Source: Eledone cirrhosa (lineage: Eukaryota). Taken from it: DNA of 64,000 bases. The notes beneath the pieces were generated by a model. The model had not been told where the DNA came from. It saw only the letters and a list, made by a program, of their open reading frames with translations, and did not search any database. Positions 1 through 57,712 of the stretch are shown here, in pieces. The stretch is taken from assembly GCA_964016885.1 (NCBI GenBank), contig OZ024743.1:38812001-38876000 (forward strand), written 5' to 3'. Position numbers and translations under genes: made by a program. Within the stretch, counting starts at the first letter, position 1. Each line of letters starts with the position of its first letter.

Positions 1-1008
1 AGAAATGTTGTTTTCGAAGGACCAACTCCTAAACAAGAAAGACGAACTGGTAACGGCATGCAAACGCAGATTGCGTAGGACTTAACTCGCCCTCAAACCC
101 CATAACGACCTGGGTGGGTAGACAAGGGATGATGCCCCTCCCCCCACACAAACACTTGCCGAATAAGTTAGGGGATTCCAGCTTACATAGGTAGATGTAT
201 CTCTTTTTTTTTCTTTTCCTCATTGCCTTCTTCCCCCTGTCTCATCCTATCACTTACTTTCACCCCCTATTTTCTTCCTCGTCTGCTTTTCCCCTTTCGC
301 CTACCCCGATGCAGCCCATAGGGCCTCTGTAGCATCTGTACCCCCACCCATGTAGTTTTAAGATAGATTTGGCCGAATACGTTTTACTAACTACTTATAG
401 CAGACGTGTTAAACCCCTTTTATTTTTGTATCAGTTTGGGTACTACTCAATTTCTACAAGTGTTTTCTATTCTCAACTTATTAACCTGTAATTGTAAGAT
501 AGCATTTTAATTTTTTTTTATTCATTTCTCACTATCTAATTTTATATATTATTTTTATTTCTTTATATTAATTTTTATTGTCTCCTACTCTTATCTGATT
601 TACTATTCTATAACCTCCCTCCTCCACTTCATACACTATCCTTAGAATCTGCTGTATATATATCACTTTCAACGCTTGGCCGCTCCTCTCACTCCTCTAT
701 TGTTCTACAGGCAAATTCAGCCACCCCTACCTCCCACCAAATGCCATGATAGACTTATTTGTGTTTACAACACATTTTAACCAATCCTCTTGACTTCAAT
801 CTTCAATCTTCCCATATAAGGAAGTACCCCCTTGACAAGTTCGGCTATTTATTCACCAGACTAACAATTCTAATTTAGTCCAGAAATAGCTGTCGAAACG
901 GCTTGAGCTCTGCCGTCGGGGTCATACTTTTTCCTATTCCCACGCTACTAAGTATTAAGTACTCTGGTGTGTTATGGTCCATCCGGTTCCTTACCACATT
1001 TCCTTTGT
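1..1008 (+). mobile_element. 3' end of a Penelope-like retroelement (ORF C-terminus, 3' region with hammerhead, ends in (TA)n)
   Basis: 2..85 translates EMLFSKDQLLNKKDELVTACKRRLRRT*, resembling the LLNKRxELxxxCRH tail after PLE GIY-YIG domains. HHR motif at 826-922. The terminus ...ccttaccacatttcctttgtta runs into (TA)n and recurs at 15218 and 55756. Confidence 0.7.
826..922 (+). ncRNA. Type I hammerhead ribozyme motif, U3-A8 core variant
   Basis: acccc-c-TTGACAA, long stem II (ggctattt...aaatagct with inner gactaa/ttagtc), GAAA, stem III cggc-ttgagctct-gccg, TC, ggggt. Confidence 0.65.
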
Positions 1009-1841
1009 TATATATATATATATATATATATATATATATATATATATATATATATATATACACATATAATTGATCGCTTTGGAAACCTCGACAATTTAGA
1101 TGGGTAAATCTCCGGGTAACAGAATCAGGTGGTGATGAGAGGGAGAGAGAGAAATGTAAGAGATGTAGAATGAGACGTAGAGGATGTAGAAGAACGTAGC
1201 AAAGAGTGTAAAATAATAACACGAGATAGAGTTAATTTGGAATTGATTTAATTGTCCCTATATTTCGGATTTCGTATCCACAAACGGAGGTTTTCCGAGG
1301 GGAAACGATTTTAGTCGGAGAGTGACAACACGTGGCCTCTGTTGCTTATCGTGTACGTATAACTGAACTAATATATTATATGTATATATAAAGTGATATG
1401 ACAGGAGACCAAATATGTTGGTAAACATAAACACATTGTTTCTTCTCTGTATTTTCTGGGCTTGTTTCCTGAATGTTTAGCATCATTTTGTTGGTATACA
1501 TCTATTACGCAATTTACAGCTAAATATGTCACCGGGATCTTACCCAACATGGTTACTGAAATGTGCATATTGTTTGCAGAAATGAATAACTAAGGAAATT
1601 CAACATATTTGGCCTCCTGTCATTTCACTTTATAATACATTTACTCCCTTCCCGCATCACCAGTATGATTCAACAATAAATTTGGATGTGTTTCACAATG
1701 TCCAGTGCTTTGATCATATTACGCCATTATTAACATTGCAGAATGACTAACTATACCCAGTGGTAAACCACCAAATTTAAGCGTATATATATATATATAT
1801 ATATATATATATATATATATATATATATATATATATATATA

Positions 1842-3296
1842 TTCAGGTTTGAATATAGAGCTTGTCTATTCCGTATGGTAAATCGTAATGTAATAATACA
1901 GAGAGTACTCAACGTAAAGCAGTCCAACCGTCTTTGTTTTTGTAGTTGGTGGTGCTATTACGGAGTTAAATATTATAATTAAATGACAGGAGGCTGGATT
2001 TGTGTAAATCCTTGAAAGGTTTATTATACTATGATCATTTCAATGACCGGGTTCCGTATGAATCCGGTGATACCATCAGGTATTCGAAATATAATACGTG
2101 AATGTAATAGATAAAATCCATGGGGCTGAAAATCGAGGACCCGAGGACGACCGCTATTCTGCTCCTTCAACCTCAGCCGGTGGCCCTCGAGTGACGTGGC
2201 TAAAGTTGACAGTGTGCTACTACCGGTCAGATAAACGAATACAGAAAGGGATGGGAACATAAGTTAGCGTCAACTCATGCCACAATATAAAAGAAAGAAA
2301 GAAAGGAGTGAGAAGAAGGGGGAAGGAAGAAGAAGACAAGCCAGGGGTAATGTCAGCTATAAGAAGAAAGACAACTACTACCGGTCATATATAGGCAAAC
2401 AAAAGGGGGAAGGAAGATAAGTCTGCAAGAGGAAGACAGGAGGAGGTGAGAAGAGAAGGAAGAGAAGGGAGAGTTAGAAAAGTAAGGGTTGATGGCTACA
2501 AGAAGGAATATAGAAAGTAGAGGGAGAAAGGTCGATATTAATGTCAGACCACAGTCAGGCCGGGAGTGGCTCGAGAAAATTTTCACAGGGACCCGCATCT
2601 TAGCAGAGGTGAATATATTGGGGTCAGTGTGTTACAATGTTTAGACTTATAGGATGAAGTTAAAAAATTAATAATCAATATTCAATATCAAAGAGGTTAG
2701 AAAATTTAAGGTTAAACAGTTTAACATTTTCAGGTTGATATATCTAATGGTTCCGATTTGATCTGTAATTTAAAGGTACTATGTGGCGGTTAAAACACCG
2801 GCCGCGCTCCGGGCCCCAGGGCGAATTAGGCTACGCCGTGTATTTTCATTTACCGAAAGAAGGGGATATTTATTTTTCCAAGCACTCCAGGGAAGCCGGT
2901 GCGCCAGGGGGCTGGTCGCGCCGCCATTAAAACCCACCCAGCAGTCCGACAGAAAGTTGGAACCTTAAAATATTGCTTAACTTTATAGGATAAAGTTGAA
3001 AGAATTCATAATGACATTATAAAATTAAAGAGTAAGAAGATTGAGAATTGAACAAACAGAAAATTGAAAATTATAATGTGTGAGCGGAATATTGGAACGT
3101 TACGTTATTGTTTAGACATATAGGATGAAGTTAAACATTTTCAGCCCCATGGATTTTATCTATTACATTCACGTATTATATTTCGAATACCTGATAATAT
3201 CACCGGATTCATACGGAACCCGGTCATTGAAATGATCATAGTATAATAAATCTTTCAAGGATTTACACAAATCCAGCCTCCTGTCATTTCATTATT
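1842..3296. mobile_element. PLE-derived inverted-repeat insertion between (TA)n tracts
   Basis: ~1975-2132 is the reverse complement of ~3137-3296. Each arm has an HHR-like motif (2026-2083 minus; 3187-3244 plus: atac CTGATAA...accgg/ccggt...GAAA tgatca TA gtat). Confidence 0.7.
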
Positions 3297-3322
3297 ATAT
3301 ATATATATATATATATATATAT

Positions 3323-55533: not shown

Positions 55534-55579
55534 TATATATATATATATATATATATATATATATATATATATATATATA

Positions 55580-55756
55580 GGAACGAGTCGGACCTCGACG
55601 GCTGAGTTCAAGCCGTTTCGACGGCTAATGAAGTCGTAACGGCTTGAGGCCAGCCGTCGGGTCCAACTCGTTCCTATTACCCACTCTACTACCCTAAGTA
55701 TTGAGTACTTTGGTGCGTTATGGTCCAGCTGGTTCCTTACCACATTTCCTTCGTTA
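55580..55756. mobile_element. Short inverted PLE remnant (family of 1-1008)
   Basis: Short end ggaac on the left and long end catttccttcgtta on the right, both in (TA)n. Confidence 0.7.
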
Positions 55757-55995
55757 TATATCTATATATATATATATATATACATACACACACACATATA
55801 TATATATATATATATATATAGTTATAGATACATATATAGATATATATAGATATTTATACATATATATAAATAAATATATATATATATGTATATATATATA
55901 TATATATATATATATATATATATATATATATATATATATATATATATATATATATATATATATATATATATATATATATATATATATATATATTT

Positions 55996-57712
55996 AAAAG
56001 AATAGAAGTTATGATATATTGGTAAACGGAATAGAAAATGCTGACAAATTGTTCACAGTGAAAAATAGTTTAATTAGGAATAAGTGAGAATTAGTAATAG
56101 TATTGGTTAGTATTCAGTTTTGGTTTTAAGTTTTACCGGTTGCGCATTTCTAATGCTTTTCAAAAATAATTCTGAGATAGAGCGTTCGTGATGTTTGCTC
56201 TGATCTGATTAGTTTTGGGAATTCTACCTGTTTTTATGTTAAAAAATGTCTCCAGCGGTATTAAAATAAGTTTTGCGCCAATTCATGTTGCAAAACTTAT
56301 TGTGGTCAAAACAATTTTGATTGGTCGGTAGAGGTCATGTGAATCTAAAAAATTTATTTTGCACCAAATGTAGGTTTGTGTCGGCTGACTGAGAAATAAG
56401 TATTTCACAACAAATATGTGTGTGTGTGTGTGTGTGTAGTAGTAGTAAAGAGGTTCGTTGTTGTGACAATGGTCCGCAGGGATGTGTGTGCAACCGCAGC
56501 CTGTTGACAGTCCAGATGCCTATTAAGACAAGTGTGTGTGTGTTTGTAACAGTAATTCGTGGTAGACGGATGGTCAGTAGGAATGTGTCTGTAAGTGTGT
56601 GGGGATATTTTAACATGTTAAAAGTTATTTTTCAGCTCTTGTCTTATACGGATAAGTGTGTGTGTGTGTGTGTGTGTGTGTGTGTGTGTGTGTGTCTTTG
56701 TATGTTAATGTACGCGTGTGTATGTGTGTGTGTATATATATGTGTGTGTGTGTGGGTGGACCAGTATTTATTTCTGGTAAAATGGTGTACATTATTCGAT
56801 ATTTTCAGTAAAATCGATTCTCTCAATAGAACATCAGAAACCTTACTAATAAAAGGTGTGAAATGATATATAGTATTGGCATAATACCAAGGTGTGTGTG
56901 AGTGTGTCCAGATTGTACGTCTTACAACGGGGATCCATTACGCCTTGCCGTATTGGAATACCTATGCACAAATATGTATCTGGAGTGTGTCCAGAAATTG
57001 TATACCTGTGCACAAATATGTATCTGGAGTGTGTCCAGATTGTACGTACTGCAAGGGGAATTCATTAGGCCTTAGCGTATTGGAATACATGTGCACAATA
57101 TTGTATGTGCCCATCAGTGTGCAATGCATGTGTGCATTTATGTATGTGTGTGTGTCGGCACGTTTATATCTATAGACATCAAAAGGTATGCAAATTTGTG
57201 TATATTTGTGTTGCACCATAGAACATGTGTGTTTCCGTATGTCATTGTGTTTATATGTGGCTAGAGATGAATGTTGATGTAGGTATGTATGTTGACGTGT
57301 GTTTGTTGTGGGTTCGTCTTAGGGAGAAGTGTTTAGACGGGGTCCGTATTTGTTAATAAAGTAAGATTCCTTGCTGATGCGCTGGGTGTGGGTGGCATTA
57401 TCTTTAAATTTGTAGAAGGGAAAGATTCTGAAGTTGGGATGATTTTGGGCGGCACAGGTATCAATGTGTTCACTCAGTGGTATTTTCCTGTATTCCCGTA
57501 TTTTAATTTGGGATCTATGGACAGTCATGCGTTGGCGGAGGCTGATTTTGGTCTGGCCTATGTATTGTTCTCGACAACCTGAGCAAGTTAATACATATAT
57601 TAGATTTTCTGATGCGCATGTGAAATTGTGTTTTACTATAAAACTAATTCCTAATTAAACTATTTTTCACTGTGAACAATTTGTCAGCATTTTCTATTCC
57701 GTTTACCAATAT
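55996..57712 (-). mobile_element. 5'-truncated PLE with GIY-YIG domain and short inverted termini
   Basis: 56013-56081 is the reverse complement of 57646-57712. Degenerate U3-A8 HHR at 56131-56166 (TTGAAAA gcat/atgc GCAA ccgg TA). Confidence 0.8.
57319..57645 (-). pseudogene. GIY-YIG endonuclease C-terminal fragment of a PLE
   Basis: NFTCASENLIYVLTCSGCREQYIGQTKISLRQRMTVHRSQI...LSEHIDTC...KESYFINKYGPRLN. Confidence 0.9.

What the first reader, a model, noticed from the sequence alone, without database searches (positions are those of the whole stretch)
826..56166. Five apparently unrelated PLE families carry hammerhead ribozymes with a compensatory U3-A8 core (UUGANAA)
Seen: 826-922 (TTGACAA), 17129-17166 (TTGAAAA), 37611-37659 (TTGACAA), 38573-38660 minus (TTGATAA) and 56131-56166 minus (TTGAAAA, with GAAA decayed to GCAA). 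All have type I topology and a palindromic stem III, in otherwise dissimilar sequences. Established: C3 and G8 form a tertiary Watson-Crick pair, U3-A8 is a known but uncommon functional variant, and PLE termini carry minimal HHRs. Inference: the same double change in five families indicates selection for a functional variant rather than decay. Scans for CUGANGA would miss this ribozyme population.
Basis: partly seen in the sequence, partly recalled or inferred. Interest (0 to 1): 0.75.

Follow-up and report, generated by a model that had tools for sequence, protein, structure and literature searches.

The report
Swapped-core hammerheads of Penelope retrotransposons
These five motifs are real hammerhead-type RNA sequences at the ends of very abundant Penelope-type jumping elements, and they carry an already described core swap (U3-A8) inherited from a few ancestors; related families spread to thousands of copies with broken-looking cores, so self-cutting is likely useful but not essential for these elements.

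Summary
All five hammerhead motifs are real, and U3-A8 is fixed in each family, so it is not decay. The variant is already published for Penelope-like elements (PLEs; Schistosoma, about 1,300 hits, PMC4209133). The five are not five independent families. Sites 2, 3 and 5 are related Neptune/Nematis-type PLEs with one stem III: 17,842 genomic U3-A8 matches against 6 C3-G8. Site 1 is a Hydra-clade PLE, and site 4 is a non-coding 593-bp retrozyme-like repeat. That gives two or three origins. Canonical C3-G8 hammerheads remain the majority in a 1-Mb sample (51 against 19), and two sit in this window. The site 5 GCAA is not decay: 98 of 100 listed copies of a 10,558-match family have C13. A sister lineage of site 1 multiplied with a C3·A8 mismatch (24 of 100 listed) and sits between two U3-A8 groups in the tree. 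Selection on the core is therefore real but likely weak, which fits in vitro data that PLE insertion does not need cleavage. Cleavage was not tested here.

The parts
1..1003 (+). Site 1 element: 3' end of a 5'-truncated Hydra-clade PLE (end of the RT-EN ORF at 2-118, then pseudo-LTR), ending in (TA)n
   Evidence: 89% identity over about 1 kb to family copies L317/L318; ORF tail hit; RWR, DKT, CxCx5C, CxxC and CxH motifs in L317/L318 match the Hydra definition
828..921 (+). Type I hammerhead, U3-A8 core 832-838, long stem II/loop 2 (56 nt), 5-bp hairpin stem III with palindromic loop, predicted GUC cut after 917
   Evidence: U3-A8 in 36 of 36 ranked copies, with N7 varying C/A
17129..17166 (+). 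Site 2: minimal type I hammerhead, U3-A8 core 17133-17139, 6-nt palindromic stem III (predicted dimer), predicted GUA cut after 17162; Neptune/Nematis-type PLE
   Evidence: 99 of the first 100 of 11,293 blind matches are U3-A8; linked RT and GIY-YIG in L319/L320
17021..17058 (-). Inverted twin of the site 2 hammerhead (back-to-back 5'-truncated arms, the usual PLE insertion form)
37509..37748 (+). Site 3: pseudo-LTR fragment of an older Neptune/Nematis-type PLE; U3-A8 core 37616-37622, same palindromic stem III as site 2, predicted cut after 37650; stem I decayed to 2 bp in this copy
   Evidence: (29 of 33 ranked copies have the exact core, none C3-G8); linked GIY-YIG in L322/L324
38497..39166 (-). 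Site 4: 1.1 units of a 593-bp non-coding tandem repeat (retrozyme-like); hammerhead 38573-38660 with U3-A8 core 38650-38656, 10-nt palindromic stem III, predicted GUC cut at 38577
   Evidence: spacing 593, 593; longest ORF about 100 aa; arrays end 78 nt past the cut in (TA)n; 51 of 52 ranked copies have the exact core
41199..41292 (-).
   Evidence: 36 of 37 ranked copies; 24 of the first 100 of 5,782 blind matches; EN 82% identical to the site 1 family
48914..48968 (-). Canonical C3-G8 hammerhead of another Hydra-clade PLE (inverted arm)
49428..50177 (+). Hydra-type linker plus GIY-YIG ORF fragment belonging to the C3-G8 hammerhead at 51289
   Evidence: Pfam PF01541 E=0.01, below the curated cut-off; 40% identical to the site 1 family EN
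51289..51343 (+). Canonical C3-G8 hammerhead at the 3' end of that Hydra-clade PLE
   Evidence: 11 of 12 incidental copies have the exact core
56131..56166 (-). Site 5: hammerhead motif with U3-A8 core (56157-56163) and family-fixed C13 (56142), palindromic stem III, weak 3-bp A-U stem I
57322..57651 (-). GIY-YIG endonuclease end of the same Neptune/Nematis-type PLE copy as site 5 (element about 56010-57644)
   Evidence: 94.5% identical to the family EN; element extent

Best explanation
The five motifs are hammerhead-ribozyme sequences in the terminal repeats of Penelope-like retroelements and one dependent retrozyme-like repeat; U3-A8 likely arose in only two or three ancestral master elements, was copied with them, and is likely under weak rather than strict selection. 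Shown: U3-A8 is fixed per family; three of the sites share a lineage; the genome holds tens of thousands of copies; C3-G8 and U3-A8 families coexist; thousands of copies carry C13, and likely over a thousand carry C3·A8. Established: the 3-8 pair is Watson-Crick and U3-A8 keeps it. Inferred: tandem or dimeric transcripts let two palindromic stem III halves pair (sites 2-5; site 1 could also fold as a monomer), giving slow, probably protein-assisted cleavage that trims or monomerises the RNA. Because insertion can use uncut RNA, masters with a damaged core can still amplify, and the pair is regained over time.
For: Family fixation: (99 of 100), 45 against 44 (17,842 against 6). In 1 Mb, positions 3/8 show only C-G (51) and U-A (12) among 65 GAAA-core hits, null 2.3. 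N7, H17 and the stem II pairs change between U3-A8 families while the core letters stay. Shared lineage of sites 2/3/5. C3-G8 Hydra families occur in the same genome and in all 26 Hydra rows of Craig et al. File S2 (their descriptor demands C3-G8). Tolerated core damage. With positions 3/7/8 masked, C3·A8 copies lie between two U3-A8 groups, and starred branches force 3 changes. PMC11167929 (passages): PLE hammerhead mutants do not affect insertion in vitro, and cleavage is protein-assisted.
Against: There is no cleavage or RNA evidence here. In one type III hammerhead only the G3-C8 swap rescued activity, and other doubles in that region were low (PMC9901934), so U3-A8 activity depends on context. 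No clear pile-up of 5' ends at the predicted cut sites appeared in local copies (for example 1 of 123 site 2 family hits begins exactly there). The EN tree leaves the Neptune-type branch open, and I found no C3-G8 Neptune-type outgroup in this genome. The Hydra subfamily tree could not be rooted, and recombination between subfamilies could mimic a ladder.
Confidence: 0.62

Rival explanations
1. Strict selection for catalysis: every amplified core is active. C13 and C3·A8 are tolerated variants, for example through a protonated C·A pair, or a shifted register in which G7 acts as G8 and the extra A sits after A9.
For: Core letters are otherwise invariant across families whose stems covary. 21 of the 24 listed C3·A8 copies have G7. 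Natural low-activity core variants are known (PMC3088659).
Against: Single changes at the 3-8 pair abolish cleavage in a PLE hammerhead (C3G, G8C). A13 is listed as consensus core. G7 is also common in U3 copies. The site 5 motif also has the weakest stems.
Confidence: 0.2
2. One reading: five independent compensatory switches, each selected.
For: At least two deep PLE lineages carry U3-A8 (Hydra against the rest, support 100/99). Further U3-A8 families exist genome-wide (9,480 matches against 2,258 control).
Against: Sites 2, 3 and 5 share stem III and 49-56% EN identity, and their pattern has practically no C3-G8 members. Sites 1 and 4 may be weakly related (z=3.2).
Confidence: 0.08
3. The motifs are catalytically dead and are kept as a protein-binding or RT-initiation structure, or simply hitchhike; U3-A8 reflects drift towards A/T.
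For: Both changes are C-to-T and G-to-A transitions in a 35% GC window. There is no cut-site footprint. HHR-less PLE clades proliferate (PMC8557442).
Against: U3·G8 is practically absent and mismatches are rare among families. The pair was regained at least once from C3·A8. GAAA, A15.1-U16.1 and H17 (never G) are kept across families (partly imposed by my descriptor).
Confidence: 0.1

Closest known systems
U3-A8 minimal hammerheads of Schistosoma mansoni Cercyon PLEs (Cervera and de la Pena 2014, PMC4209133; parts 1-2 of 4 and supplement passages read)
   Same: Type I hammerhead in PLE pseudo-LTRs, U3-A8 covariation, palindromic stem III, many dispersed truncated copies, missed by a CUGANGA descriptor
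   Different: Here the count is over ten times higher (more than 17,000 for one lineage against about 1,300), it occurs in Hydra and Neptune/Nematis-type elements and a retrozyme-like repeat, and families with fixed C13 or C3·A8 exist
Hydra clade of C-terminal EN+ PLEs (Craig et al. 2021, PMC8557442; section 11, passages and Files S1/S2 part 2 read)
   Same: RW(K/R), DKT, CxCx5C, CxxC and CxH motifs, (TA)n targets and a 3' hammerhead (site 1 family)
   Different: All 26 listed Hydra hammerheads are C3-G8 (their descriptor requires it) with short loop 2; the site 1 lineage is U3-A8 or C3·A8 with a 56-nt stem II/loop 2 and a hairpin stem III
Neptune/Nematis PLEs
   Same: DKG motif, CX4CxxC linker, GIY-YIG with CCHH-type residues, inverted 5'-truncated insertions in (TA)n (sites 2, 3, 5)
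   Different: U3-A8 core throughout this lineage; C13 in the site 5 family; Neptune against Nematis was not resolved
Metazoan non-LTR retrozymes (PMC7229834, passages; bioRxiv 10.64898/2026.07.22.740005, abstract and one passage)
   Same: Non-coding tandem unit with one type I hammerhead per monomer, occurring together with PLEs (site 4)
   Different: 593 bp against the 150-450 bp described, U3-A8 core; circular RNA not shown here
Natural U3-A8 hammerheads (Perreault et al. 2011, PMC3088659, section 8 read)
   Same: Same compensatory pair, cited there as active in vitro
   Different: No C13 or C3·A8 variant is named in the text of that section (figure not seen)

Membership tests
Type I hammerhead ribozyme | Three helices around the core, open stem I | tested here: met
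   stem I is weak at site 5 (3 A-U pairs) and in the window copy of site 3 (2 bp)
Type I hammerhead ribozyme | Watson-Crick pair at positions 3-8 | tested here: met
   U3-A8 in all five families; not met in the sister subfamily at 41203-41288 (C3·A8)
Type I hammerhead ribozyme | G12-A13-A14-A15.1 box | tested here: not met
   Met at sites 1-4; not met at site 5, where C13 is family-fixed
Type I hammerhead ribozyme | Site-specific self-cleavage after H17 | not testable with these tools
   No assay; the genomic 5'-end check showed no clear pile-up
Hydra-clade PLE (site 1) | C-terminal GIY-YIG; RWK, DKT, CxCx5C, CxxC, CxH; no CCHH | tested here: met
   L317/L318 ORFs (RWR for RWK) against the definition
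Hydra-clade PLE (site 1) | Placement with reference Hydra RTs | not tested
   No reference sequences were placed in the tree
Neptune/Nematis PLE (sites 2, 3, 5) | RT with DKG, CX2-5CxxC linker, C-terminal GIY-YIG | tested here: met
   L319, L324, L326, L327; PF01541 E=1.7e-07 for L002
Neptune/Nematis PLE (sites 2, 3, 5) | Clade assignment Neptune against Nematis by RT phylogeny | not tested
   Only an EN-region tree of own sequences was built, and that branch is open
Autonomous PLE (site 4) | RT-EN ORF linked to the hammerhead | tested here: not met
   593-bp unit has no long ORF and no PLE similarity among local loci
Non-LTR retrozyme (site 4) | Non-coding tandem monomers, one type I hammerhead each | tested here: met
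   593-bp spacing
Non-LTR retrozyme (site 4) | Expressed as monomeric circular RNA | not testable with these tools
   No RNA data could be laid

The most novel reading that the evidence does not exclude
This genome is a natural fitness landscape of the hammerhead core. A Hydra lineage multiplied through a C3·A8 mismatch phase and regained U3-A8, and a family of more than 10,000 copies spread with C at the invariant A13. Either PLE spread does not need self-cleavage in vivo, or C13 on a U3-A8 background is an undescribed working core.
Probability: 0.4. Interest if true: 0.55.

Novelty: new variant of a known kind. Interest (0 to 1): 0.33.

Why it matters
The role of PLE hammerheads is still open (PMC8557442; PMC11167929). 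The U3-A8 swap itself is old news. Closely related, high-copy families that differ at single core positions (A13 against C13; U3 against C3) give ready-made natural pairs for testing whether cleavage matters for spread. A practical point: about a quarter of the hammerhead-like hits in a 1-Mb sample (19 of 70 C-G or U-A hits) would be missed by CUGANGA/GAAA descriptors.

Tried and rejected
Rfam scan: no hammerhead family among the 150 listed of 211 matches, so it missed the canonical motifs too. The repeat finder was swamped by (TA)n. My first label 'Naiad' for the site 1 family was wrong, because its EN is C-terminal. My first guess that 41203-41288 is a decayed single copy was rejected. The first Hydra subfamily tree was discarded because non-homologous flanks were aligned. 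Rooting with L155 failed: branch length 0.65 and only 33 nt aligned by BLAST. The cut-site footprint test on local copies was negative or underpowered. Sequencing runs: no RNA holder listed; nothing was laid. Lünse et al. 2017 and Przybilski and Hammann 2007 are not held, so I have not seen them, and they may describe further core variants, including changes at 13. File 1 of the PMC4209133 supplement could not be searched. No A13C text match was found in the listings of searches; these do not cover figures or subscription papers.
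Full report
Observation. The five motifs are present at the stated places. A descriptor with positions 3, 8 and 13 left free finds nine hammerhead-like motifs in the window: the five, an inverted twin of site 2, a C3·A8 relative of site 1 at 41203-41288 minus, and two canonical C3-G8 motifs at 48914-48968 minus and 51289-51343 plus. Six U3-A8 hits compare with a mean of 0.06 in 50 shuffles; the descriptor was tuned after seeing the sites. 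Rfam listed no hammerhead among 150 of 211 matches.

Family state. The window lies in a 3.0-Gb animal assembly. The 30 best loci were taken per site. The exact U3-A8 core was seen in 36 of 36 (site 1, N7 free), 41 of 44 (site 2), 29 of 33 (site 3), 51 of 52 (site 4) and 36 of 39 (site 5) copies, and none was C3-G8. These sets are ranked by likeness to the query, so I added blind patterns. For site 2, 99 of the first 100 listed of 11,293 matches are U3-A8 and all 100 have A13. With the stem III shared by sites 2 and 3, a U3-A8 pattern gives 17,842 matches (control 1) and a looser C3-G8 pattern gives 6 (control 144). U3-A8 is therefore inherited from master elements, not decay.

Share of the genome. 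In 100 evenly spaced 10-kb stretches (chosen at round coordinates, mostly on large contigs), the 65 GAAA-core hits were 51 C-G, 12 U-A and 2 other, against 2.3 per shuffle. Seven more U-A hits had GCAA (6) or GGAA (1), among 10 non-GAAA hits with a null of 7.8. Twenty-one of the C-G hits come from three tandem arrays. A wider U3-A8 pattern gives 9,480 matches against 2,258 control and shows several more families with compensatory stem II changes and free N7. This supports purifying selection on the fold at the level of master elements.

How many origins. Sites 2, 3 and 5 lie 1.0-1.3 kb downstream of RT plus GIY-YIG ORFs with DKG and a CX4CxxC linker (Neptune/Nematis type). Their endonucleases are 49-56% identical, sites 2 and 5 align at the DNA level, and all three share the same palindromic stem III. 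Site 1 belongs to a Hydra-clade element by motif test. Two other Hydra families in this genome carry C3-G8, as do all 26 Hydra rows in Craig et al. File S2, whose descriptor demands it. Site 4 is a 593-bp non-coding tandem unit whose arrays end 78 nt past the cut site in (TA)n, which fits a retrozyme; it has only weak similarity to site 1 (z=3.2). The five sites thus stand for two or three origins. The EN tree separates Hydra from the rest (100/99) but leaves the Neptune-type branch open, and I found no C3-G8 Neptune-type outgroup here.

Results against strict selection. The site 5 GCAA is the family state: 98 of the first 100 listed of 10,558 matches have C13, against 0 of 100 in the sister family. 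In the site 1 lineage, a pattern that excludes the site 1 subfamily itself gives 5,782 matches. By hand count, the first 100 are 76 U3-A8, 24 C3·A8 and none with G8. A tree of 44 of 79 usable copies (the two query-ranked sets thinned to 8 each; positions 3, 7 and 8 masked) places the C3·A8 copies in a ladder between two U3-A8 groups. Starred branches force three changes, one of them a single copy. Wherever the root lies, at least one U3-A8 group descends from C3·A8 ancestors. Rooting failed, an earlier tree was discarded, and recombination between subfamilies was not excluded.

Mechanism. Sites 2-5 have 6-10-nt palindromes that cannot fold as a hairpin but form predicted self-duplexes of -8 to -13 kcal/mol, so they would cleave as dimers in tandem transcripts. 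Site 1 has a 5-bp hairpin and could also act as a monomer. Published PLE hammerheads cleave slowly as dimers. In a lizard PLE, cleavage needs the protein, single 3/8 mutants kill it, and insertion in vitro does not need it (PMC11167929, passages). In one type III scaffold U3-A8 did not rescue activity (PMC9901934, passages), while Perreault et al. cite it as active. My best reading is a slow, probably protein-assisted ribozyme that is useful but not essential, so damaged cores can amplify and the pair is later regained. Cleavage is inferred, not shown. Local copies show no clear 5'-end pile-up at the cut sites.

Novelty. U3-A8 in PLE hammerheads was reported in 2014, with about 1,300 hits in Schistosoma mansoni. 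Earlier notes of this scan describe the retrozymes, the Hydra U3-A8 motif and the C3·A8 phase elsewhere in this genome, and other fixed core changes in other genomes. I saw no note or paper listing a fixed C13 family, but two key papers were not available. Verdict: a real, known variant at unusual scale, with fewer origins than claimed. The C13 and C3·A8 families are the testable remainder.

Noticed in passing
window 58795-58873 minus: Weak HDV-like ribozyme match (RF02682, 28 bits, E=0.39, gathering score 44)
   Followed up: no
window 59469-62413 minus: ORF fragments that look like Helitron Rep/helicase (label from recall, not from a family search)
   Followed up: no
window 30040-31044 and 41524-42177 minus: ORF fragments that look like hAT/ZBED-type transposases (label from recall)
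   Followed up: no
window 8993-14243: Higher-order tandem repeat: units of about 960-980 bp holding 37-bp subrepeats, 97-100% alike
   Followed up: no
L237, L212, L109: Tandem arrays of about 310 bp with a canonical C3-G8 hammerhead per unit, retrozyme-like
   Followed up: no
L370, L371 and L374-L376: Further U3-A8 families: one more Hydra PLE (EN about 35-40% identical to the site 1 lineage) and short repeats with covarying stem II
   Followed up: partly
site 2 family copies in local loci: 5' ends cluster 61-80 nt upstream of the predicted cut (65 of 123 hits); short Hydra copies cluster 31-50 nt upstream, inside loop 2 (sampling partly biased by the queries)
   Followed up: partly
window 15250-15440 and 55570-55680: Short inverted fragments of the site 1 lineage that keep only the 3' half of the hammerhead
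   Followed up: no
window 38186-38343: Near-perfect long palindrome beside the site 4 element
   Followed up: no
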